Shown piece after piece: positions 3,631 to 24,328 of a stretch of DNA of 24,982 nucleotides (the stretch's first letter is position 1; each line of letters opens with the position of its first letter). The notes under the pieces are model-generated. The model was given only the letters and a program-made list of their open reading frames with translations, was not told where the DNA came from and searched no databases. Origin of the DNA: a virus (lineage: Duplodnaviria > Heunggongvirae > Uroviricota > Caudoviricetes); IMG/VR virus record IMGVR_UViG_3300029508_000048, positions 1 to 24,982 of that record; one strand, given 5' to 3'. The position numbers were made by a program, and so were the translations under genes.

Positions 3631-4500
3631 ATGAATAAATTCCAAATTAGTCCAAATTTAAAACCTGAAACAAAACTGTGGCGCTATATGTCTCTTGATA
3701 AATTCATCGATATATTATCCAGAGAAGAGCTATATTTTTCTCCTCTTAGTTCTTACAGCAATAGCGATCCATATGAGGGGTTATTACCTAAGGTTGCCTT
3801 AAATGCGTGGGCAAGCATCGTCAAAAGTAAGTTTAATGATATACAATCATATTTCAATGATACCGTAGAGCGTATCAGGGAAAACGAACTATTAGGCAGA
3901 ATCTCTAATGAAAAAGCCGAAACAGAAATCACCAAGTTGCAAACAATGATGGATACACAATTACCAAAAATAGAATCTATCTATTTTAAGATTTTAAACT
4001 CCGTCACAGTGAATTGTTGGCATCAAAATGAACATGAGTCAGAAGGAATGTGGCGTTTGTATTCAGATGCTAACAAAGGAATAGCAATTCAAACATCAAT
4101 ATCACGCTTGATAGATTCACTTCAATCTGAAGAGATTATCTCTATTAGTGAAGTAAAATACATTGATTATTTCGATGAAAAACTAACATCTGAAGATTGC
4201 GTCGTGAACGGAAGAATGGTTCCTTTTTTAAAACGAAAAGCTTTTTCACATGAAAATGAAGTACGTTTATCCATAACACCAAAAATTATTAATAGCGACA
4301 TCGAAAACTATACTCCCAAGGGGATAAGAATAAAAACAGATCCTGTAAAGCTAATCGAAAAAATATACATTTCTCCATATGCTTCACAACCTTACCCCAG
4401 TGCTGTAGCAGCAATATTAGAAAAATTCAATATTGATAATAACAAACTTGTTATCTCCAACTTGCTTACGATTGATCATAATTTATTGAGATTGTTTTGA
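3631..4500 (+). CDS. Hypothetical protein, AT-rich moron in reverse orientation inside the late tail cluster (position of P2 orf30); possible abortive-infection or defence protein
   Basis: 289-aa ORF with AT-rich codon usage unlike the flanking late genes, opposite strand, own promoter. N-terminal motif LWRYMSLDKFIDILSREELYFSP...SDPYEG. No family assigned. Confidence 0.7.
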   Translation: MNKFQISPNLKPETKLWRYMSLDKFIDILSREELYFSPLSSYSNSDPYEGLLPKVALNAWASIVKSKFNDIQSYFNDTVERIRENELLGRISNEKAETEITKLQTMMDTQLPKIESIYFKILNSVTVNCWHQNEHESEGMWRLYSDANKGIAIQTSISRLIDSLQSEEIISISEVKYIDYFDEKLTSEDCVVNGRMVPFLKRKAFSHENEVRLSITPKIINSDIENYTPKGIRIKTDPVKLIEKIYISPYASQPYPSAVAAILEKFNIDNNKLVISNLLTIDHNLLRLF

Positions 4501-4505
4501 TTAGC

Positions 4506-4955
4506 TTAGCTATCAACCAAAGCACGTAATAATACGTCTTGCGATAATGACAAAATTTTATCGTTATAACCTAACAACTGCCGCTCTGCATAACGCACCT
4601 CCGGTCCCTTACGACTGACGCGATCTCGCAGGCCGTAATGGTGAACGCGGGCAATGCGCTGCAGCTTGCCTTCAAACTGTACACTGGCAGAGTCGGCGCT
4701 GGCGGCAGTTTTCAGGTATTTTGTCGTGCGCAGCTTTGCAAACATCTGACGTTTGATGCGCCCCTTCTTGCTGCGTGCTGTTACCCTGCGCGGTTCATAA
4801 CTGCTGCCATCTGGATTGCGCTGCATCCTGATATTCTGCTGCTGTGTCCGGCGCAGTTCCTGCGCCAGCTGGCGCATCATGCGGCTTCTCGTGGCTGGTT
4901 CCAGATTCGCCAGCAAGGCACTCAGCCAGTCGTCCACCTTCTGCAGTTCAGCCAC
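4506..4955 (-). CDS. S: Tail completion protein S (P2 gpS-like)
   Basis: 149-aa minus ORF, GTG start at 4955 with GGTG upstream; basic C-terminal half; downstream of R. Confidence 0.8.
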   Translation of the reverse strand: MAELQKVDDWLSALLANLEPATRSRMMRQLAQELRRTQQQNIRMQRNPDGSSYEPRRVTARSKKGRIKRQMFAKLRTTKYLKTAASADSASVQFEGKLQRIARVHHYGLRDRVSRKGPEVRYAERQLLGYNDKILSLSQDVLLRALVDS

Positions 4956-13296: not shown

Positions 13297-13914
13297 TTAC
13301 CAGTTAAAAATTGATGAGCTGCGAATTGCAGGAACATCCGATGGATTTCGTTTAGCAGCTGGTTCCATCAACTTACGCTTGTTAAATGCCTGATCAATAT
13401 AATACTCAGGATTTTTAATAAAGACAGAGTATTTTACCAATGCACAATATACGTCAGAGTCATTATAATGGGGAACTGTTTTTTCATAAACATGATTCTT
13501 TCTAACCAGATAAGGCAAATAATAATCATATCCCCAACCTGGCGTTCTTAGACTTATAGAACATCCGCATGATGGATCTGCACATACTGCAGGAGTAAAC
13601 ACACTATCGTAAATTTCATCTCTGATAACACCAATTAGACCATTATAGTTTTCTCCCCAGAGTGATGCTTGAATTTCAGAGTTTACAAATGGACGATTTT
13701 TGGTTTCCGTTCCAATAAGAACGACAGTAACCGTTGAGTCTTTTAAAAAATCCTCACGAATAGTCCTCATTATTGTTTCATCAGTGTTAGTTGTACTAAT
13801 GTCACCATCACTTACCGACTTATCAATAAACGATTCTCCTCCGAATAAATCAATAATCTCATCTTTGAGATCTTGTTCGTTAGCATGATGATAACTAAGA
13901 AACGTCTTATGCAT
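13297..13914 (-). CDS. TIR-like protein, ThsB-like (DUF1863-type TIR-like domain), candidate NAD-consuming sensor of a defence cassette
   Basis: 205-aa AT-rich ORF. N-terminal KTFLSYHHANEQD, then TVTVVLIGTETKNRPFVNSEIQAS with a Glu near residue 80, resembling remembered ThsB/TIR motifs (F-S-Y-H...D strand, VLIG..T, catalytic E). Start ATG overlaps the upstream stop (TAATG); GGAG RBS. Confidence 0.6.
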   Translation of the reverse strand: MHKTFLSYHHANEQDLKDEIIDLFGGESFIDKSVSDGDISTTNTDETIMRTIREDFLKDSTVTVVLIGTETKNRPFVNSEIQASLWGENYNGLIGVIRDEIYDSVFTPAVCADPSCGCSISLRTPGWGYDYYLPYLVRKNHVYEKTVPHYNDSDVYCALVKYSVFIKNPEYYIDQAFNKRKLMEPAAKRNPSDVPAIRSSSIFNW

Positions 13915-14645
13915 TATTCACTCCATTTATCAACATTTATATCAAACTCTTTGACTACCTTATCATTGAAGAAATCGTTTACTTCTTTAAAACCTTCCAA
14001 TACTTGACTAAAATGATAATAATGCTTTTGTATAGTACTTATAGGGGTTAAATGATACGGCAATGATATAAATTCGCCGTTAGGGTCTCTATCCTTTGTG
14101 GTCACTTTATCATTATCTGAAACATATTTATGCCATCTCCGATAATTATTTTGATGCTTTGTTAAAAAAGAGTTTAACGTTTTCAAAATTTCATTTGAAA
14201 GTAAATACAGTTTTTTATCTCTTTTTTTCTTCACATCTAGTAATTTCATTTCATCTCTAATGAATTTATAGCACTCATAATATGAGTTTAAAACTTCTTC
14301 AATTGAGTCATAATTCGGATCAAATTTAAATAATGTTCGCTTCGTATCCAGATAATTTTTTACGCTCTTTTTAAAAAGAAGATCAGACTTATTTAGTAAA
14401 ATATTAATACCACCAAAACTAAGTTGCTCTAATCTCAATGAATATCTTTGATGAAATGCACCGACCAGCAAGATATAAGCAACTAAAAATAGTATTAATA
14501 CTGATAGAAAAGCACGAATTATGTTTACATTTGACATGAAATTAACTATAAACCACCATTTTTCAAACGGTGAAAACGGAATGCACCCCATGATAATAAG
14601 TAGAAGAACAAAGATACAACCCCATAAAACCCACAATCTGTACAT
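13914..14645 (-). CDS. Membrane protein with two N-terminal TM helices and an unassigned soluble domain of about 180 aa; candidate effector partner of the TIR-like protein
   Basis: Track ORF starts at TTG 14690. Preferred start is ATG 14645 (MYRLWVLWGCIFVLLLIIMGCI...) with AGGA 8 nt upstream. Two hydrophobic helices then a K/N/Y-rich domain. Very AT-rich. Translationally coupled to the downstream TIR-like gene. Confidence 0.65.
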   Translation of the reverse strand: MYRLWVLWGCIFVLLLIIMGCIPFSPFEKWWFIVNFMSNVNIIRAFLSVLILFLVAYILLVGAFHQRYSLRLEQLSFGGINILLNKSDLLFKKSVKNYLDTKRTLFKFDPNYDSIEEVLNSYYECYKFIRDEMKLLDVKKKRDKKLYLLSNEILKTLNSFLTKHQNNYRRWHKYVSDNDKVTTKDRDPNGEFISLPYHLTPISTIQKHYYHFSQVLEGFKEVNDFFNDKVVKEFDINVDKWSE

Positions 14646-14667
14646 AAGAAAGATCCTTTTTCTTTTT

Positions 14668-14695
14668 ATAATACTGCAACTACACCTCAAGTCAA
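14668..14695 (-). promoter_or_regulatory. Sigma70-like promoter of the membrane-protein/TIR-like operon
   Basis: Minus strand TTGACT (plus 14690-14695), 16-bp spacer, TATTAT (plus 14668-14673), about 20 bp upstream of ATG 14645. Confidence 0.45.
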
Positions 14696-14760: not shown

Positions 14761-14794
14761 CTAGCCAAACTTTCTCAATCAAATCAGGTTGCGC

Positions 14795-14820
14795 GCGCTC
14801 GTATCCCCGCCACGCCTGCC
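14795..14820. other. cos-like sequence (candidate cohesive-end site)
   Basis: Minus strand reads GGCGTGGCGGGGATACGAGC. The first 13 nt match the P2/186-type 19-nt cohesive end as I remember it (GGCG(A/T)GGCGGGGAAAGCA-), 12-13 of 13. Confidence 0.35.
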
Positions 14821-14860
14821 CGCTTTATGTAGTGGTTTTCATGCACCTGCATGATCTACG

Positions 14861-14885
14861 CAAAAGCCCGCCAGAACTGGCGGGC
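14861..14885 (-). terminator. Rho-independent terminator downstream of the lipoprotein gene
   Basis: GC-rich inverted repeat GCCCGCCAG/CTGGCGGGC followed on the minus strand by TTTTG. Confidence 0.5.
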
Positions 14886-14989
14886 CTTAACACAAAAGAT
14901 CCTCAAACGATCATGCGATCTCATGCAGCATAGACATGCGCGTTTATGCAGAATGTGCAAAATCGTAACATACTCAGTAAGCGTGAAAC

Positions 14990-15667
14990 CTAGAACGTGA
15001 CAGCCTTGTCAAAGCCAGAAATAATTGTATAAGAAATAGACGAGTTATCAGCCTTGTTCACTTTGAACTTGGCACCTTTGTAAGCGATAACATCACTTCC
15101 CTTAGAATCTACAGAAAAATCTGTTGTAAATGCTGCACGAGCCATATCGTTTGCAAATTCACGATAGGTGAACTTCATTACACCGCCTGCATTTCCATTA
15201 TATTCGATAGTCTTAACCAATGAATTACTCACTCGACACAGCCCATCAGGAACACGTTTGATAGAAATTTCTGATGCAGTATAAGAAGTGCCATTTGGCG
15301 GTGATATCTCATTTTTTGCAGCATCGTAACTAACATAATCAACATAGTTACCGATTTGCCCATAGAGATTTTTTAACGCAACAGCTTGAGGGTTATGATA
15401 ATTGCGGTAAATTCCATTCCCCTCACTGCAATATGTACCAGCAGCGATAGAAGACAATGCACCATTAGCCGCACCAAGTTCTAGTACGTCCGTTTTAAAT
15501 CCAGTAGCAGATGTGATAATGGGATCGCCCATGTAGGCGGTAGCACTTTGCCCAATAGCTGGCTTCACCACTTCAATAGCAGTGATATTTCGGTTAGAAG
15601 CATGTGGCACGCAACCAGTTAGGATTACAGCAAGAGATATTGGTAACGCTACATTATTAATTTTCAT
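14990..15667 (-). CDS. Lipoprotein of unknown function (cargo gene in the cos-proximal right-arm region; candidate surface/exclusion factor)
   Basis: Start at ATG 15667 gives MKINNVALPISLAVILTGC, a signal peptide with lipobox L-T-G-C. Mature part is Gly/Ser/Asn/Tyr-rich. GC lower than the backbone by eye. Confidence 0.7.
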   Translation of the reverse strand: MKINNVALPISLAVILTGCVPHASNRNITAIEVVKPAIGQSATAYMGDPIITSATGFKTDVLELGAANGALSSIAAGTYCSEGNGIYRNYHNPQAVALKNLYGQIGNYVDYVSYDAAKNEISPPNGTSYTASEISIKRVPDGLCRVSNSLVKTIEYNGNAGGVMKFTYREFANDMARAAFTTDFSVDSKGSDVIAYKGAKFKVNKADNSSISYTIISGFDKAVTF

Positions 15668-15690
15668 TTTTAGCCTATTATTCTTTTCTT

Positions 15691-15726
15691 GACAAAAAAC
15701 AAGGCGATATCTGATTGACATCGCCT
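15691..15726 (-). terminator. Putative terminator after the DinI-like gene
   Basis: Minus strand AGGCGAT-(11 nt)-ATCGCCT hairpin followed by TGTTTTTTG. Confidence 0.4.
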
Positions 15727-15780
15727 CTCACTCATATGTAACCCTTTTTGATTAGTAAAAACAAGCGTCTATTGACAAAA

Positions 15781-16014
15781 TCAATGCAGCCAGCTGTCGT
15801 CTTCCCACACCTTCTGCAAAATTTTCATCACTTGTTTTCTTTCTTCGTCCAGTTGCAGTCCGGTCAGTTCCACACCGTTAGAGCTACCTTTACGGATACG
15901 GATTACCGTTTTGGGATACAGGGGGCGCAGATTGCGGTAAAGCTCGGATTCAAGGGCGTCCAGGGTAGACTGGCTAATCTTCTGCTCTTTATCGATCATT
16001 ATTTCAATGCGCAT
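15781..16014 (-). CDS. dinI: DinI-like protein (DinI family; C-terminal-domain equivalent of a 186 Tum-type antirepressor)
   Basis: Start ATG 16014 with GAGGTG upstream. MRIEIMIDKEQ...LDALESELYRNLRPLYPKTVIRIRKGSSNGVELTG...ILQKVWEDDSWL matches the remembered DinI pattern (MRIEVTIAK...VSVRY...ILQETWE). Confidence 0.8.
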   Translation of the reverse strand: MRIEIMIDKEQKISQSTLDALESELYRNLRPLYPKTVIRIRKGSSNGVELTGLQLDEERKQVMKILQKVWEDDSWLH

Positions 16015-16024
16015 AAAAGTCACC

Positions 16025-16213
16025 TCAGCTGATGACATCCATTGAGCGGTTGTATTCGTGGCTTCTGATTTTTGCCATGAGTTCATCTGTCAGTTCAGAA
16101 ACCCACTGCAGAGCCAGCCCCTTCTCTTCATCACTACACTCACTAGCCGCTACAAGCTTAAGAAAAAAATCAATGCGCTGGAGCTTCAAAGACTCCAAAA
16201 AATAGTCCTGCAT
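16025..16213 (-). CDS. Small acidic protein, first gene of the LexA-controlled operon (possible N-terminal part of a Tum-like antirepressor)
   Basis: 62-aa ORF with ATG at 16213 and a strong AGGAGG RBS; ends 11 nt before the DinI-like start in another frame. Confidence 0.55.
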   Translation of the reverse strand: MQDYFLESLKLQRIDFFLKLVAASECSDEEKGLALQWVSELTDELMAKIRSHEYNRSMDVIS

Positions 16214-16253: not shown

Positions 16254-16273
16254 CACTGTTTATATTTACAGTA
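16254..16273. promoter_or_regulatory. LexA (SOS) box overlapping the promoter of the 62-aa/DinI-like operon
   Basis: CACTGTTTATATTTACAGTA fits CTGT-N8-ACAG (about 16 of 20 to TACTGTATATATATACAGTA). Overlaps a -10 TATACT (plus 16270-16275) with -35 TTTACA (plus 16291-16296). Confidence 0.6.
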
Positions 16274-16730: not shown

Positions 16731-16815
16731 CAAGGGGACAGTTATTGCCACGAGTCCAAGGGGACAGTTATTGCCACGAGTCCAAGGGGACAGTTATTGC
16801 CACGAGTCCAAGGGG
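16731..16815. repeat. Tandem direct repeat, 3 copies of 26 bp plus a partial fourth, at the 3' end of gene A
   Basis: CAAGGGGACAGTTATTGCCACGAGTC at 16731-16756, 16757-16782, 16783-16808, then CAAGGGG at 16809-16815. Confidence 0.9.
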
Positions 16816-18859
16816 CGCAAGCGCCCTGGTCGGCTGCCGCCTCCTGAACGTCAACGGCCTTACGGGCCTTTTTCCACTTCATCGCGTGCGTGCAAATCTT
16901 GCCCTCTATAATCGGGGACCAGATGCCATAGATACGGATACCGTGATCGCCGTAAGCGCTCGGTTCGTCGTTAAGCTCATAAGCCGTGCGGACAAGGTGA
17001 TGTTTGCGGGGAACCAGTACACCGCCCTGCTTCATGATGTAAGTGGCAAAGCAACCCGCATCTGCAGCTGCCAGTACCGCATCCAGACGCGGATTATCCA
17101 GTACCGGTGCACCCGCTTTGCGTTCGCCCTGCACTCTCGCCGCCTGACCAGCCAGCAAGCGCAGCTCACGGTATGCCTGACGCCCCGGGATACCAAAGAA
17201 ACGGAATTGCTGGACACGGTGCAGTGACGCCCAGGCACAGACATGCTCGGCGCTGTCACGCAATGATCTGCCGGTTTCTTTGCTGATTTCTTTAGCCAGC
17301 CCGCGCCCGTCGATGTTCTTACTGATGTATTTGGCGATGTAGCTGGTCGGTGTACCCTTGCGCGGGTTGATTAGCTCGGACTTGAAGCGCGGGCCGGTAT
17401 TGGTGCCCAGTTCCTCGCGGTCTTCACGGATGGCGAACTTACGCAGCAGCGCGGTGATGGAACGACGGTCTTTTTTGCGCATAAAGCACAGAAGATGCCA
17501 GTGCACGGTGCCGTCATGGTGCGGCTCTGCAACGCGGACGCCGTACCAGCGCAATCCGGCCTTGTGCATGGCCTTGCGGAAAGCGGCGAACGTATCAACC
17601 AGATAATCACTGCTCTGCCGGACAGTGGCACTGGTCCACTTCGGATTAGGTCTGCCGTTGTTGAGGGTTGCGTGGAAGCGTGACGGGCAGGTGATGGTAT
17701 AGAACACCGCGCAGTCTCCGCGCATTTCCGCTATCAGTTCCAGCCCCTTAACACAGGTCATCATTTCATTACGGCGGTGTGCCGGGTTACTGTTGCTGGC
17801 GTTCACTACATCTTCCATGTCCAGCGTGTCGCCGTCTTCATTGACCAGCTCATGCGAGCGGAAGAACTCCAACGATTTGCGACGCTGCTCGCGTTTGTGT
17901 ATCACGGCTTCATAACTGACATACGGGGACGCTTTCTTGTTGACCAGACAGACGGCGCGCATCTGCTCCTCCCGCCACTCGCAGCGCATCTGCCACAATT
18001 TGCGATACCACCAGTCCGCGCACAGCATGCGCGCCAGCGACGGTGGGATCAGTTCATAAGGCACTGGCTTGCGACGGCGCTTTTTGCGGCGCAACTTCTC
18101 AAAGGCAGGCGGAATGACCTCAAGGCGCATGGCTTCTGCAGCAACCCTTTCCCACGCCTGGCGGATTTCTTCTGGTTTAACATCGTCACTGACAAACAGA
18201 TCACCGCAAGCCGCATCAAGACACATGCTCATATGTGCCGCAACCAGCGTGGAAAGGCGCTTGACCTGATCCTGATTCATTTCAGGAAGTACCAGCAATC
18301 CCTCCAGCCCGTCCTGGCTCGCCATGAATCGGAAAGATGCAGACACCTGGCTGTCACGCACTCGCTCCAGCCGCTCAAAACAAGGCCTGATTGTTTCGCG
18401 CAGATAACGGGAATAAGCTTTAGCCCTGCCTAGGCTATTGAAGTATTTAATCCGCTCTAACAGAGGCTTGCTGATATGGGCAGGCATGGCGCTTACATCG
18501 GCAATAATCACCAAATCGGGATTAACGCGCTGCTGCTCGCGGGCCATTCTGGCATGGCTAATCAGCCGATCCTGCTCTATTTCACGCTGGACAGGATCGC
18601 GGGATTCATTGAAGAAATAACGTTCCCACACCTCATCACTCAGCGCCTCACGGCGCAGATGCTCCTGCTCGTTATCTGCAGCGTACAGAGTGATGAGGTT
18701 TGAAAGCGCAGACTCAGGCGCAAATTCCGCCGGGTCCAAATACGGGTTAACCGCTTTTTTTGGGGTATTCCATGGAAAGGCCACGGCGGTCACAATCGGA
18801 CCGCCTTTATCTTTTAGTAGCTCAGACATCACTGGAAGACTCCAAAGCTCACAAAGCAC
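16742..18859 (-). CDS. A: Replication initiation protein A (rolling-circle endonuclease, P2/186 gpA-like)
   Basis: 705-aa ORF containing the YIAKYISK active-site tyrosine motif typical of gpA/phiX174-A initiators. True start may be a few codons in (MSELLKDKG). Confidence 0.9.
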
Positions 18860-21196: not shown

Positions 21197-21321
21197 GATG
21201 CAACATTCCTCGTTTAGCAATGATTAATCAGGATGAATACTGATCGTTTGTATTTTGTGAACACGATAAACATACGATCACATCATGAAATCGTCAAGAT
21301 AAAAGTTCACCTGGAGTGACC
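21197..21321. promoter_or_regulatory. Immunity switch region between the apl/cox-like gene and cI
   Basis: 125-bp AT-rich intergenic region between divergent regulator genes; 7-bp inverted repeat TGATCGT (21241-21247) / ACGATCA (21274-21280). Confidence 0.5.
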
Positions 21322-21888
21322 ATGAATTTGGAAAAAGGCGGCCGTGGTGCCATAGAGCGTATGGTTGAAGCCTATGGCTTCAAGACAAGACAAGCTTTGT
21401 GCGACCATTTAGGGATTTCAAAGAGTACTTTGGCGACACGCTATATGCGCGACTCCTTCCCTGCGGAATGGGTTATTCAGTGCGCCTTAGAGACAGGTAC
21501 GTCATTGAGCTGGCTGACTAATGGCTACGGAATCAAAGAGGGTTCACAAAATGAAAACACCAAAGAACTTCCGCTAAAAATTCTCTATGATGGTGAACTT
21601 TGTCCTGAAGGGTCTTATGTTTTTGATGTAAATTTTCTACCTAAAGCTCTAAAAAATCCGATGGTTGTTGTTGTTGATAGTTCCAAATACATTTGTGATA
21701 TTGATTATGATGATGTCCGTGATGGAAAATGGATTGTTAATATTGATGGTGAAATATCAATGAGAACAATTACACGCTTGCCTGGCAGGCGCCTTCATGT
21801 GGAAGGTGGTATATCTCCTTTCGAATGCGCGTTAGAAGATATAATAATGATCGCAAAAATCGTGATGGCATGTCTTGAATATAAATAA
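21322..21888 (+). CDS. cI: CI immunity repressor (186 CI-type)
   Basis: ATG 21322 with GGAG 5 nt upstream (track starts at GTG 21316). N-terminal HTH-like region (LCDHLGISKSTLATRYMRDSFPAEW), C-terminal domain, about 190 aa as recalled for 186 CI. Confidence 0.8.
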   Translation: MNLEKGGRGAIERMVEAYGFKTRQALCDHLGISKSTLATRYMRDSFPAEWVIQCALETGTSLSWLTNGYGIKEGSQNENTKELPLKILYDGELCPEGSYVFDVNFLPKALKNPMVVVVDSSKYICDIDYDDVRDGKWIVNIDGEISMRTITRLPGRRLHVEGGISPFECALEDIIMIAKIVMACLEYK

Positions 21889-21934: not shown

Positions 21935-23191
21935 ATGGATGAATGTATAGTCGAGATGTTATTAATAGTGAATAAAGATACTTCCTTTGGACGCTCTCCG
22001 TCAGCCTATAAAAAAATAATTGAGGCCAGTGAGGAAGTCATATTTTCACCAAAAGAATTAAAATTCAAAGAACAGTCATTTAAATATGATATATCAGAAT
22101 ATGGAAGCAATAAAGAAACTATCTCTGTAAAATTAACACTAAACGACGTTAGTGAAGATAATTTAATCACTTTCTCAAGATTAACCAGACTCTTCAAAAA
22201 AATATCTAGCGAAAGTAATTTAGGTAGCACTCAAATTATTTGGGATGATATAAGCAAATATTACTCAATTCAGGCTTATCCATTAATCCATGAAATTGAA
22301 AACTTAATGAGAAAATTAATAACAAAATTCATGATACATAACGTTGGATTGTCTTGGACAAAAGATTCAGTGCCGAAGGAATTTTCAGAAGCATTGAAAA
22401 AATCCGAAAAAAACACAGAATATAATGAACATAATTTAATGTATCAAGTTGACTTTATTGAACTTTCTGACTTTATATTCAAATCTTACCGAGAGATTGA
22501 AATAACAGATTTGATCCGAAAATTAACCCCGCTTGAATTTAAAGACATTAATGCTGATATATTCTCAGAATTGAAAAAAATCGTTCCCAGAACAAACTGG
22601 GAAAAATTCTTTGAGTCAAACATCGAAGCAAATGCTGACACTATAATAAAAAATTGGAGTATTTTATATCGACTCAGATGCAAAGTTGCTCATAATAGAG
22701 ATTTTACTAAACAAGATCTTGATGAAGTAATTCGCCTTACAAATACACTGAGTCCAATACTAAAAAAAGCAATTGAAAAAACCGAGACTCTGACTATTGA
22801 TCCGAAGGAAAAAGAAGAATTAACATCCCAGTTTGAGAATGAGTTTTCTAACAATACTAAAAGTGATGAAGAATTATTCAAAGACAGAGTGCTTGAATTA
22901 TATCTACAAATAAGACATTTATATCAACTTACACATTCAAACAGTGAAAATATTAATAGCTATTACAAAGTAATACAAACAACATTCCAAAATGTTTTGC
23001 ATGACGAAAAGTTCAATGCCGAAGACGTAATGAATTTAATTAATATCTCAACTAATGATGATGTTCTGAGAAAATGTGATAATTTCGAGATACATGATTT
23101 AATGAATATTTGCCATTCTATTAAAGAACTTGTTAATTTTAAAATATCAAGTTTTGAAGCTGGGTCAAATGAAGCAGTTAAAAATGAATGA
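21935..23191 (+). CDS. Hypothetical 418-aa protein inside the lysogenic cI-int operon; candidate abortive-infection/defence protein with an Rx4-6H (HEPN-like) motif
   Basis: Very AT-rich ORF with GAGGAG RBS; motif ILYRLRCKVAHNRDF near the middle; no TM segments; followed by a terminator. Confidence 0.7.
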   Translation: MDECIVEMLLIVNKDTSFGRSPSAYKKIIEASEEVIFSPKELKFKEQSFKYDISEYGSNKETISVKLTLNDVSEDNLITFSRLTRLFKKISSESNLGSTQIIWDDISKYYSIQAYPLIHEIENLMRKLITKFMIHNVGLSWTKDSVPKEFSEALKKSEKNTEYNEHNLMYQVDFIELSDFIFKSYREIEITDLIRKLTPLEFKDINADIFSELKKIVPRTNWEKFFESNIEANADTIIKNWSILYRLRCKVAHNRDFTKQDLDEVIRLTNTLSPILKKAIEKTETLTIDPKEKEELTSQFENEFSNNTKSDEELFKDRVLELYLQIRHLYQLTHSNSENINSYYKVIQTTFQNVLHDEKFNAEDVMNLINISTNDDVLRKCDNFEIHDLMNICHSIKELVNFKISSFEAGSNEAVKNE

Positions 23192-23250
23192 TAATGTTTT
23201 ATCTAATAGTTATCAAACATTGACCACTGTTCAAACATACAGTTAAATTT

Positions 23251-23275: not shown

Positions 23276-24328
23276 ATGGCAGTACGAAAACTCGACACAG
23301 GTAAATGGATATGCGAATGCTACCCCGCAGGTCGCAACGGACGCCGCATGCGTAGGCAATTCGCCACTAAAGGCGAGGCTCTGGCTTTCGAACGTCACAC
23401 TATGGAAGAAACAGAAGCAAAACCCTGGCTAGGCGAATCGGTAGACCGTCGGACTCTAAAAGACGTCGTTGAACTCTGGTTCAAGCTGCACGGCAAATCT
23501 CTGACTGCTGGCGAGCATGTTTACGACAAGCTGATCCTGATGGTCGATGCTCTCGGAAATCCCCTCGCCACTGATTTAACATCCAAAATGTTCGCGCACT
23601 ATCGCGATAAACGCCTGACAGGTGAAATCTACTTTAGCGAAAAATGGAAGAAAGGAGCCAGCCCGGTAACTATCAATCTTGAGCAAAGCTATATGAGCGG
23701 AGTGTTTAGCGAGTTGGCACGACTTGGAGAATGGACTGCACCAAACCCACTGGAGAACATGCGCAAATTCACCATCGCAGAAAAGGAGATGGCCTGGCTG
23801 ACTCATGAACAAATCACTGAGCTTTTGTGCGACTGCAAACGCCAAAGCCCCCTGCTCGCTCTGGTTGTCAAAATCTGTCTGAGTACCGGTGCCCGCTGGC
23901 GCGAAGCTGTAAATCTGACTCGTTCTCAGGTTACAAAATACCGGATCACATTTGTCAGGACTAAGGGCAAAAAGAACCGCAGCATTCCGATCAGCAAAGA
24001 GTTGTATGAGGAAATTATTGCCCTGGACGGCTTCAAGTTCTTTACTGACTGCTACTTCCAGTTTTTATCTGTGATGGAGAAAACTTCTATCGTGCTGCCG
24101 CGCGGTCAGCTTACCCACGTTCTGCGCCATACGTTTGCAGCACACTTTATGATGTCAGGCGGTAACATCCTTGCCCTACAGAAAATCCTTGGTCACCACG
24201 ACATAAAAATGACCATGCGCTATGCTCACCTAGCCCCTGATCACCTTGAAACAGCGCTGCGCTTTAACCCATTGGCAACCCTGCCAAATGGCGACAAAGT
24301 GGCGGCAGCGGTTGGCATTGCACCGTAA
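23276..24328 (+). CDS. int: Tyrosine integrase (P2/186 Int family)
   Basis: 350-aa ORF with C-terminal catalytic signature ...HVLRHTFAAHF...HHDIKMTMRYAHL (H-x-x-R ... Y); last prophage gene before the host flank. Confidence 0.9.
   Translation: MAVRKLDTGKWICECYPAGRNGRRMRRQFATKGEALAFERHTMEETEAKPWLGESVDRRTLKDVVELWFKLHGKSLTAGEHVYDKLILMVDALGNPLATDLTSKMFAHYRDKRLTGEIYFSEKWKKGASPVTINLEQSYMSGVFSELARLGEWTAPNPLENMRKFTIAEKEMAWLTHEQITELLCDCKRQSPLLALVVKICLSTGARWREAVNLTRSQVTKYRITFVRTKGKKNRSIPISKELYEEIIALDGFKFFTDCYFQFLSVMEKTSIVLPRGQLTHVLRHTFAAHFMMSGGNILALQKILGHHDIKMTMRYAHLAPDHLETALRFNPLATLPNGDKVAAAVGIAP

What the first reader, a model, noticed from the sequence alone, without database searches (positions are those of the whole stretch)
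14861..15726. Lipoprotein cargo gene on the right-arm side of cos, the position of the P2 tin/old hotspot
Between the tum/dinI-like module and the cos-like motif, where P2 carries tin and old as I recall, sits a gene for a 225-aa lipoprotein (signal peptide MKINNVALPISLAVILTG-C, Gly/Ser/Asn/Tyr-rich mature part) with its own GC-rich terminator and lower GC than the backbone. Prophage lipoproteins at such loci often act in superinfection exclusion. I see no clean promoter between the upstream hairpin and its ATG, so it may be read through from the SOS-controlled operon.
Basis: partly seen in the sequence, partly recalled or inferred. Interest (0 to 1): 0.45.

Follow-up and report, generated by a model that had tools for sequence, protein, structure and literature searches.

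The report
SOS-linked prophage outer-membrane lipoprotein cargo gene
A 186/Fels-2-type prophage carries, right next to its DNA-packaging site, a gene for an outer-membrane lipoprotein of unknown function that is probably switched on with the phage's DNA-damage operon and most likely protects the cell envelope against other phages, though this has not been tested.

Summary
Window 14990..15667 (minus strand) encodes a 225-aa lipoprotein with lipobox LTG-C19 and Val at +2, which predicts outer-membrane sorting. It lies between a split tum/DinI module and a cos site that aligns base-for-base with phage 186 cos.

The family is large (about 2,400 clusters at 50% identity), mostly lipoproteins, and was mobile-element cargo in most contexts sampled. 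It is under strong purifying selection (dN/dS about 0.05).

The layout copies the 186 SOS operon: LexA box, tum, partial terminator, distal gene, terminator, cos. The 186 distal gene, orf97, is unrelated but blocks 186 infection when expressed from a plasmid. Fels-2 STM2726-28 is induced by a DNA-damaging mutagen.

One detail is wrong: the "own" GC-rich terminator is conserved cos-proximal backbone. Superinfection exclusion is plausible but unproven.

The parts
16256..16271 (-). LexA box CTGT-N8-ACAG in the promoter region upstream of the split tum operon. It is the counterpart of the 186 p95 operator.
   Evidence: Exact pattern match, 2 in the window against 0.43 expected. 186 annotates p95 and a LexA site at the equivalent place.
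16025..16213 (-). 62-aa first gene of the SOS operon, probably the antirepressor half of a split Tum.
   Evidence: phrog_698, 6e-38. Fels-2 and PSP3 have tum split by a stop codon, with the upstream half acting as antirepressor in PSP3 (PMC3121763).
15781..16014 (-). 77-aa DinI-like gene, the DinI half of Tum.
   Evidence: Pfam DinI 8.7e-23 and phrog_189 7.7e-31, matching the C-terminal half of 186 Tum. The NCBI PGAP annotation calls it at 234 nt.
14940..15782 (-). The 843-bp variable cassette: hairpin, lipoprotein gene and about 50 nt of 3' sequence. It is bounded by backbone shared with prophages that lack it.
   Evidence: blastn against L003 (empty slot) and L004 (other cassette). Homology ends at 14939 and resumes at 15783, the dinI stop codon.
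15691..15727 (-). Intrinsic-terminator-like hairpin plus U-run between dinI and the lipoprotein gene. It belongs to the cassette and is the likely partial terminator or attenuator, analogous to 186 t95a.
   Evidence: 11-bp stem, -16.6 kcal/mol, z -4.55, tail UUGUUUUUUG. The 88%-identity alleles keep the stem through a C:G to U:A double change and keep the U-run. 186 t95a is annotated 'partial termination of p95 transcript'.
14990..15667 (-). Lipoprotein CDS, 225 aa. Signal peptide is residues 1-18, the lipidated Cys is C19, about 11 residues form a tether, then an all-beta body (residues 31-217). It equals WP_000700647.1.
   Evidence: phrog_1353 3e-105 over full length. 99.1% identical to Fels-2 STM2726. 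dN/dS 0 to 0.08 against most alleles, up to 0.15-0.3 in two near-identical ones, and about 0.05 against the 79% alleles.
14863..14888 (-). GC-rich hairpin followed by UUUUGCG. It is the backbone terminator of the SOS operon (analogous to 186 t95b) and is present whether or not the cassette is there.
   Evidence: -23 kcal/mol, z -5.0. It is conserved in the empty-slot prophage L003 and in all 186/Fels-2-type loci examined.
14798..14816 (-). Predicted 19-nt cohesive end GGCGTGGCGGGGATACGAG (cos). The left-arm variable cargo begins about 7 nt beyond it.
   Evidence: Alignment to the annotated right and left ends of phage 186. The sequences of 33 distinct loci diverge right after ...GAGCGCGCG.

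Best explanation
The gene encodes a Sec/Lgt/LspA-processed lipoprotein that the Lol pathway sorts to the outer membrane. It is carried as a single-gene cassette in the last slot of the LexA-controlled tum operon of a 186/Fels-2-type prophage, 173 nt from cos.

In the lysogen, LexA keeps the operon low. After DNA damage, transcription from the p95-like promoter runs through the antirepressor and DinI genes. Part of it passes the cassette's own hairpin terminator, reads the lipoprotein gene and stops at the backbone terminator before cos.

The product then sits in the envelope of a cell that is entering lytic growth. Its most likely job is to alter or mask a conserved envelope component, so that other phages (possibly relatives too) cannot adsorb or inject. 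That would be superinfection exclusion of the Llp/Cor/TraT type. It may also spare progeny from being lost on cell debris.

Shown: the gene, its lipoprotein features, its cassette nature, the operon layout, purifying selection, and SOS co-induction of the Fels-2 orthologue.

Inferred: outer-membrane location, partial read-through in this phage, and the exclusion function itself.
For: Lipoprotein and sorting.
- Lipobox LTGC is present, and the Cys is invariant in 22 close homologues.
- A lipobox occurs in 142 of 174 family sequences.
- The +2 residue is never Asp in 114 aligned members.

Regulation.
- A LexA box lies at 16256..16271.
- A terminator-like hairpin lies between dinI and the gene, with a compensatory stem change in the 88% alleles.
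- No usable promoter lies after the hairpin.
- Phage 186 has the same p95-tum-t95a(partial)-orf97-t95b-cos layout.
- STM2726-27-28 were all induced by the mutagen MX, from 14.8-fold to 2.6-fold.

Accessory status and constraint.
- Slot contents are swapped between sister prophages.
- The left-arm cargo beside the gene varies freely across 57 viral contigs, while the gene keeps its place after dinI.
- dN/dS is about 0.05, and several alleles differ only at synonymous sites.

Hints of a role at the envelope or in competition.
- 186 Orf97, unrelated but in the same slot, blocks 186 infection when expressed from a plasmid.
- The third known occupant of the slot is also a membrane protein.
- The cos-proximal region of P2-like phages is a validated defence hotspot.
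- Relatives at 24-57% identity sit as single-gene cargo in a lambda-like prophage beside an OLD-like nuclease, in SSU5-like and Mu-like phage-plasmids, in Acinetobacter and Moraxella siphophages within or beside tail genes, in an Aeromonas integrase island and beside MobC in Marinomonas.
- In Vibrio the gene is translationally coupled to an 8-stranded outer-membrane beta-barrel gene.
Against: - No experiment bears on function.
- P2/186-type phages are thought to use LPS (my recollection, not tested here), and it is unclear how a lipoprotein would mask it.
- The family also occurs on non-phage elements and in marine bacteria, so blocking the carrier phage's own receptor cannot be the general role.
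- Very strong purifying selection with no sign of diversification is unusual for a protein in a direct arms race.
- The microarray does not say which of STM2726 or STM2728 gave the 2.6-fold value. Prophage replication after induction could also raise the signal.
- The 79%-identity alleles lack the hairpin and carry a conserved promoter-like site (TTGATG-17-TATGAT), so SOS coupling is not universal in this lineage.
Confidence: 0.4

Rival explanations
1. It is an envelope-conversion factor that has nothing to do with phages. The lipoprotein would protect the lysogen against other outer-membrane or periplasmic insults, such as bacteriocins or tailocins, contact-dependent or type VI effectors, complement or antimicrobial peptides. 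Alternatively it would modulate an outer-membrane protein or envelope-stress signalling.
For: - The family is broad (2,434 clusters at E no greater than 1e-3) and is found on plasmids, islands and phages in Vibrio, Aeromonas, Marinomonas, Pseudoalteromonas, Methylotuvimicrobium and Acinetobacter.
- A nearly invariant polar set (Y156, Y168, R169, E170, R177, D187, K197, N208, Y213) points to one conserved ligand rather than variable phage parts.
- The Vibrio operon pairs it with an outer-membrane beta-barrel.
- Purifying selection is strong.
Against: - No effector or toxin gene sits next to it in about 15 contexts examined, so it is not a classical immunity gene.
- Its occurrence in free-living marine bacteria argues against a role in animal-host virulence.
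- Its repeated capture by five or more unrelated temperate phage lineages, often in late or SOS-induced operons, fits phage-phage competition better.
Confidence: 0.25
2. It serves the carrier phage's own lytic cycle. Made only after induction, it would modify the outer membrane so that released virions do not re-adsorb to debris or vesicles, or it would help late envelope events. It would not protect the lysogen as such.
For: - Expression appears tied to SOS induction here.
- In other phages the gene sits within tail or late modules: after the tape measure gene in a Mu-like phage-plasmid, before it in Acinetobacter Ab1656-2, and among tail genes in Moraxella Mcat28.
- From my own knowledge, T5 Llp is the precedent for a lipoprotein with this dual role.
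Against: - The gene is dispensable, since sister prophages lack it.
- The same protein, 100% identical, is carried by phages of Klebsiella, E. coli and Salmonella, whose surface receptors differ.
- Family members occur on non-phage elements.
Confidence: 0.15
3. A rival on regulation: the gene is an ordinary constitutively expressed moron. The upstream hairpin would be an efficient terminator that insulates the gene from the SOS operon, and a weak promoter not seen by consensus scans would drive it in the lysogen.
For: - The hairpin plus U-run is a good intrinsic terminator and belongs to the cassette, not to the backbone.
- The 79%-identity alleles lack the hairpin and have a conserved TTGATG-17-TATGAT site 46 nt upstream of the ATG.
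- Low GC and a separate origin are typical of self-contained morons.
Against: - No acceptable promoter lies in the 33 nt between the U-run and the ATG, and none was found upstream of the hairpin within the cassette.
- All three genes STM2726-28 rose with the mutagen MX.
- The equivalent 186 terminator is annotated as partial.
Confidence: 0.2
4. It is a hitch-hiking ORF with no current function.
For: It has no assigned function anywhere, and it is absent from most related prophages.
Against: - Alleles differ at up to 5.9% of synonymous sites with no amino-acid change, and dN/dS is about 0.05 at 79% identity.
- The lipobox and about 20 positions are conserved across a family at 20-30% identity.
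- A deep alignment yields a confident fold (pLDDT 90.5).
Confidence: 0.03

Closest known systems
Phage 186 SOS operon distal gene orf97 (p95-tum-t95a-orf97-t95b-cos)
   Same: It occupies the same slot and orientation. It follows a LexA-controlled tum/DinI module, is preceded by a hairpin terminator (annotated as partial in 186), and is followed by a terminator and then cos. Both products are envelope proteins of about 225-243 aa. Orf97 blocks 186 infection when expressed from a plasmid (record note).
   Different: There is no sequence similarity (BLASTP E = 3.8) and the PHROG families differ (3403 against 1353). Orf97 has N-terminal hydrophobic, membrane-helix-like segments (my reading of its sequence) rather than a lipobox. 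The hairpin sequences are unrelated. Here tum is split into two genes, as in Fels-2 and PSP3.
Fels-2 STM2726 and its Klebsiella and Salmonella phage orthologues (phrog_1353)
   Same: It is the same gene: 99-100% protein identity, the same position after the DinI gene and the same flanking cos sequence.
   Different: Nothing of substance differs. Fels-2 annotates the longer 243-aa ORF, whose extra 18 codons overlap the hairpin. All records call it a hypothetical protein.
P2 tin/old and the cos-proximal defence hotspot of P2-like phages (Rousset et al. 2022)
   Same: It occupies the right-arm region between gpA and cos, is variable between relatives, has low GC, and is flanked across cos by a ThsB-TIR plus membrane-protein pair.
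   Different: It is not homologous to Tin or Old and matches no PADLOC model. It is transcribed with the tum operon towards cos, whereas old-tin are transcribed away from cos from their own promoter. Its product is extracytoplasmic, unlike cytoplasmic abortive-infection proteins.
Phage and plasmid outer-membrane exclusion or conversion lipoproteins (T5 Llp, phi80/N15/HK022 Cor, lambda Bor/Iss, F TraT). The comparison of their properties rests on my own knowledge.
   Same: It is a single-gene mobile-element cargo encoding a lipoprotein predicted to reach the outer membrane, often placed in late or induced phage operons. This is the functional class the gene most plausibly belongs to.
   Different: No Pfam family matches at E up to 1. 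As I recall, Bor and TraT have Pfam models, so that scan would cover them. There is no structural match in the PDB. At 207 mature residues it is much larger than Llp, Cor or Bor. Its fold is an all-beta body with no close solved relative.

Membership tests
Bacterial lipoproteins (Lgt/LspA/Lnt substrates) | N-terminal signal peptide with a positive n-region and a hydrophobic h-region, ending in a lipobox [LVI][ASTVI][GAS]C | tested here: met
   The N-terminus reads MK-INNVALPISLAVI-LTG-C19. The Cys is invariant in close homologues, and a lipobox occurs in 142 of 174 family sequences.
Bacterial lipoproteins (Lgt/LspA/Lnt substrates) | Actual diacylglyceryl modification and signal peptidase II cleavage | not testable with these tools
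   This needs globomycin sensitivity, palmitate labelling or mass spectrometry.
Lol-sorted outer-membrane lipoproteins (Enterobacterales) | No Asp at position +2 after the lipidated Cys (the Lol-avoidance signal) | tested here: met
   Position +2 is Val and +3 is Pro. In 114 aligned family members +2 is A/V/S/T/G/I and never D. The rule itself comes from established knowledge.
phrog_1353 | Full-length match to the family HMM | tested here: met
   E = 3.1e-105, residues 1-223 matching profile positions 1-230 of 230.
186-type SOS operon (p95-tum-t95a-distal gene-t95b-cos) | LexA operator at the promoter of a tum/DinI gene located between gpA and cos | tested here: met
   CTGTTTATATTTACAG at 16256..16271. 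A phrog_698 ORF plus a DinI gene follow it. gpA is at 16742..18859. cos is aligned to 186.
186-type SOS operon (p95-tum-t95a-distal gene-t95b-cos) | Hairpin terminator between tum and the distal gene that lets part of the transcript through | tested here: inconclusive
   The hairpin plus U-run is present and keeps its pairing through covarying changes. Partial read-through is inferred from the 186 annotation and from Fels-2 microarray co-induction. It was not measured for this phage.
186-type SOS operon (p95-tum-t95a-distal gene-t95b-cos) | Distal gene homologous to 186 orf97 | tested here: not met
   BLASTP E = 3.8, and the PHROG families differ. The slot is the same but the cargo is different.
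P2 Tin / Old | Sequence homology to Tin, or to the Old ATPase-TOPRIM nuclease | tested here: not met
   No Pfam, NCBIfam or PADLOC hit. Only the map position is shared.
Known anti-phage defence systems (PADLOC-DB 2.0) | Match to any defence-protein model | tested here: not met
   0 families at E up to 0.1.
Characterised exclusion or conversion lipoproteins (Bor/Iss, TraT, Cor, Llp) | Sequence or fold similarity to a characterised member | tested here: not met
Superinfection-exclusion proteins (functional class) | Expression reduces adsorption, DNA entry or plating of superinfecting phage | not testable with these tools
   This needs plating, adsorption and DNA-entry assays.

The most novel reading that the evidence does not exclude
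phrog_1353 and its roughly 2,400 relatives would be a new, structurally unprecedented class of mobile-element-borne outer-membrane lipoproteins. They would bind a conserved small outer-membrane beta-barrel (OmpA, OmpX or OmpW type), as the translationally coupled barrel-lipoprotein operon in Vibrio suggests. By doing so they would give broad, TraT-like exclusion of phages, and possibly of conjugation or bacteriocins, that use such barrels. In 186/Fels-2-type phages this shield would be raised specifically when the SOS response commits the cell to lysis.
Probability: 0.1. Interest if true: 0.65.

Novelty: new member of a known kind. Interest (0 to 1): 0.38.

Why it matters
The cos-proximal hotspot of P2-like phages has been mined mainly for cytoplasmic defence systems. 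This gene points to a second, envelope-acting type of cargo, placed in a defined sub-slot that is wired to the SOS response.

The protein family is large, is carried on mobile elements in most contexts sampled, and is strongly constrained. It has no Pfam family and no solved structural relative. One clean phenotype would therefore annotate thousands of genes, including ones in Klebsiella ST258/ST512/ST11, Salmonella LT2 and E. coli ATCC 8739 and HS.

If the protein blocks phage entry, it matters for the host range of therapeutic phages against these lineages. If it does not, it is still a good entry point to what outer-membrane lipoprotein cargo genes do. As it stands, the finding is a well-defined uncharacterised cargo gene and not a surprise.

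Tried and rejected
- Family scans. Pfam, NCBIfam and PADLOC scans of the protein found nothing. A Pfam scan of 63 diverse family members also found nothing consistent.
- PDB by sequence. A profile search against PDB sequences gave only a signal-peptide-like hit to TrwH, E = 0.21.
- Homology to 186 Orf97 was tested and rejected. Homology between Orf97 and the L004 280-aa cassette protein was also rejected.
- Genome scan. The genome-contig scan gave only one locus.
- Conserved partner gene. About 15 contexts were examined. Only Vibrio has one, an outer-membrane beta-barrel. There are no toxin or effector neighbours, so a T6SS or CDI immunity role was set aside.
- Alternative start. The 243-aa start at 15721 used in the Fels-2 annotation was rejected, because its extra codons lie in the hairpin and homologues start at MK.
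- Literature. Searches for STM2726, EcHS_A0921, WP_000700647 and orf97 found no functional study of this protein. Bunny et al. 2002 is not held, and I did not find Brumby et al. 1996 in the library. The supplement of the 2026 NAR paper on P2/P4 hotspots is not held either.
Full report
**What is there**

On the minus strand, an ORF runs from 15721 to 14990. The start that agrees with homologues and with the NCBI PGAP annotation is the ATG at 15667, giving 225 aa.

- The N-terminus MKINNVALPISLAVILTG-C is a textbook lipoprotein signal peptide.
- The lipobox Cys is invariant in 22 close homologues. A lipobox occurs in 142 of 174 retrieved family sequences, fragments included.
- The residue after the Cys is Val, and it is never Asp in 114 aligned members. 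By the Lol-avoidance rule (established knowledge), this predicts outer-membrane sorting.
- The mature protein has 207 residues, pI about 7.8, and is rich in Ala, Ser, Gly, Asn and Tyr.
- Gene GC is 40.6% (GC3 31%), against 56% for gpA and terminase.

**Genomic setting**

The window is a 186/Fels-2-type member of the P2 family. It has a 186-type CI, CII (CP76) and Fil, plus integrase, gpA, terminase and portal.

Upstream of the gene, on the same strand, lie three elements:
- a perfect LexA box at 16256..16271;
- a 62-aa ORF (phrog_698);
- a 77-aa DinI-like gene (Pfam 9e-23).

This is the split tum arrangement described for Fels-2 and PSP3 (PMC3121763).

Downstream, the sequence ...CATAAAGCGGGCA|GGCGTGGCGGGGATACGAG aligns with the annotated right and left ends of phage 186. 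The cos cut is therefore 173 nt past the stop codon. In the virion map, the gene is the last one on the right arm.

**It is a cassette**

Comparison with sister E. coli prophages shows that backbone homology stops at 14939 and resumes at 15783, the dinI stop codon. The slot is empty in L003. In L004 it holds an unrelated 280-aa membrane protein plus a 71-aa protein.

The gene is in 50 of 5,426 complete E. coli genomes, whereas 1,281 match at least part of the 3.1-kb flanking query.

The cassette contains the upstream hairpin but not the downstream GC-rich one. That downstream hairpin (about 14863..14888, -23 kcal/mol) belongs to roughly 150 bp of cos-proximal backbone conserved in all relatives.

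In 57 IMG/VR contigs, every allele at 79% identity or above whose flanks are present sits right after dinI. The distance to the portal gene on the other side of cos ranges from about 0.4 to 3.6 kb, and none of these contigs has the TIR pair seen here. The gene is therefore independent of the left-arm cargo.

**Regulation**

The hairpin at 15727..15701 has 11 bp, folds at -16.6 kcal/mol (z -4.6) and is followed by UUGUUUUUUG. It ends 33 nt before the ATG. The 88%-identity alleles keep the stem through a C:G to U:A double change. No usable promoter follows it.

Phage 186 has exactly this layout, and its record annotates it:
- p95, SOS-dependent, with a LexA site;
- tum;
- t95a, 'partial termination of p95 transcript';
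- orf97;
- t95b;
- cos.

For Fels-2, whose gene is 99% identical, a microarray study of Salmonella TA100 treated with the mutagen MX found all three genes STM2726-27-28 induced. The range was 14.8-fold to 2.6-fold, all with p no greater than 0.01 (PMC2225428). This supports SOS-linked read-through. It does not separate read-through from copy-number effects after induction.

The 79%-identity alleles have a different 5' region, with no hairpin and a conserved TTGATG-17-TATGAT site. Regulation may therefore differ within the lineage.

**The protein family**

It matches phrog_1353 (unknown function) over its full length. Identical copies occur in many Klebsiella pneumoniae prophages. Copies at 98.7-99.1% identity occur in Fels-2 and in Salmonella phage RE2010. 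It appears only as 'hypothetical' in the P2 hotspot tables of Rousset 2022, next to varying neighbours.

An exhaustive HMM search found 2,434 clusters (50% identity) at E no greater than 1e-3, and 1,256 at E no greater than 1e-10. Most are 205-245 aa.

The C-terminal half is the conserved core. The nearly invariant positions are Y156, G158, Y168, R169, E170, R177, D187, K197, G198, A199, N208 and Y213.

No Pfam, NCBIfam or PADLOC model matches, either for this protein or for 63 diverse members. No PDB sequence is related.

Selection is strongly purifying. Several alleles differ at 3-6% of synonymous sites with no amino-acid change, and dN/dS is about 0.05 against the 79% alleles.

**Where relatives live**

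Relatives at 24-57% identity are single-gene cargo in many unrelated mobile elements:
- a lambda-like prophage with a serine recombinase, next to an OLD-type nuclease;
- SSU5-like phage-plasmids of E. coli;
- a Mu-like phage-plasmid, right after the tape measure gene;
- Acinetobacter Vieuvirus and Moraxella Mcat28, within or beside tail genes;
- a small integrase island next to rpoD in Aeromonas;
- beside MobC in Marinomonas;
- an IncC plasmid of Edwardsiella;
- next to IS elements or a VapE-type primase in other genomes.

Only in Vibrio is there a conserved partner. There, a 185-aa OMP_b-brl gene has a stop codon that overlaps the lipoprotein start codon. No toxin or effector neighbours were seen.

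**Interpretation**

I am fairly sure (about 0.8) of what the gene is: an outer-membrane-directed lipoprotein cassette in the distal slot of the LexA-controlled tum operon.

What it does is inferred. The best-supported guess is envelope-level exclusion of other phages, switched on when the prophage is induced. The support is:
- the analogy with 186 Orf97, which is unrelated but occupies the same slot and 'blocks 186 infection' when expressed from a plasmid;
- the fact that all three known occupants of the slot are envelope proteins;
- the defence-rich nature of the hotspot;
- repeated capture by unrelated temperate phages, often in operons expressed during lytic growth.

Against it stand the absence of any homology to known exclusion proteins, the presence of the family on non-phage elements, and its very conservative evolution. 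These points fit a conserved host envelope target, but they are equally compatible with a protective role unrelated to phages.

I put the combined statement at 0.4.

**Novelty**

The gene itself is already in databases (Fels-2 STM2726) but uncharacterised. The slot and its regulation are known from 186. It is therefore a new, non-homologous member of a known kind: SOS-operon or cos-hotspot cargo, a lipoprotein cargo gene. Its family is large and lacks any structural or functional annotation, which makes it worth one round of simple experiments.

Noticed in passing
window 13297..14690 (minus strand): A ThsB-type TIR protein (205 aa; Pfam ThsB_TIR 1e-14; PADLOC ThsB) sits directly downstream of, and overlapping, a 258-aa multi-pass membrane protein (243 aa in the NCBI PGAP annotation). 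GC is 29-36%. The pair begins about 100 nt beyond the cos overhang, in variable sequence that starts about 7 nt past cos, so it is left-arm hotspot cargo. It resembles the TIR plus transmembrane system of P2-like phage AC1 that Rousset 2022 showed to protect against lambda, LF82_P8 and P2. Identity to AC1 was not checked. The membrane partner matches no Pfam, PHROG or PADLOC model.
   Followed up: partly
window 21935..23191 (+): A 418-aa ORF lies between the 186-type CI repressor (21316..21888) and the integrase (23276..24328). Its only hit is a weak, sub-threshold one to HEPN_Swt1 (5.5e-4), with no PHROG match. It is probably cargo in a third variable slot. A second CTGT-N8-ACAG motif lies at 23227..23242, just upstream of int.
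   Followed up: no
window 3631..4500 (+): A DUF2971 protein (289 aa, phrog_34615) is encoded on the strand opposite to the surrounding minus-strand ORFs (which I did not annotate). It is another likely accessory gene. A DUF2971 gene also sits beside the lipoprotein homologue on an Edwardsiella IncC plasmid (L101).
   Followed up: no
L033 (phage 186) 2105..2836; L004 2235..3292; window 14940..15782: Three mutually unrelated cassettes occupy the same post-tum slot: 186 orf97 (phrog_3403, membrane-anchored), the lipoprotein (phrog_1353), and a 280-aa membrane protein plus a 71-aa protein (phrog_3630 and phrog_9843). All are predicted envelope proteins, so this sub-slot may favour envelope-acting cargo.
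   Followed up: partly
L070-L072, about 4926..4955: Lipoprotein alleles at 79% identity have a completely different 5' region. It lacks the terminator hairpin and has a TTGATG-17-TATGAT promoter-like site. The site keeps its position in two diverged sequences, although a 9/12 match is no better than chance for the region.
   Followed up: partly
L013-L017 7444..8675; L025 3447..4678 (Vibrio): The Vibrio homologue (28% identity) is translationally coupled to a 185-aa 8-stranded outer-membrane beta-barrel gene (OMP_b-brl), with the stop and start codons overlapping. The pair sits in several different genomic neighbourhoods and on a plasmid.
   Followed up: partly
protein collection, cluster of window 14990..15667: The 90%-identity cluster that holds this lipoprotein is represented by a 308-aa branched-chain amino-acid aminotransferase and mixes the two unrelated proteins. 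This is a clustering artefact, and it hid the exact cluster from the first homology search.
   Followed up: no
window 14789..14940 and 33 distinct related loci: The roughly 150-bp cos-proximal block is nearly invariant across Klebsiella, Salmonella and E. coli phages. Sequence diverges abruptly about 7 nt after the 19-nt cohesive end, which marks a very sharp recombination boundary for the left-arm hotspot.
   Followed up: partly
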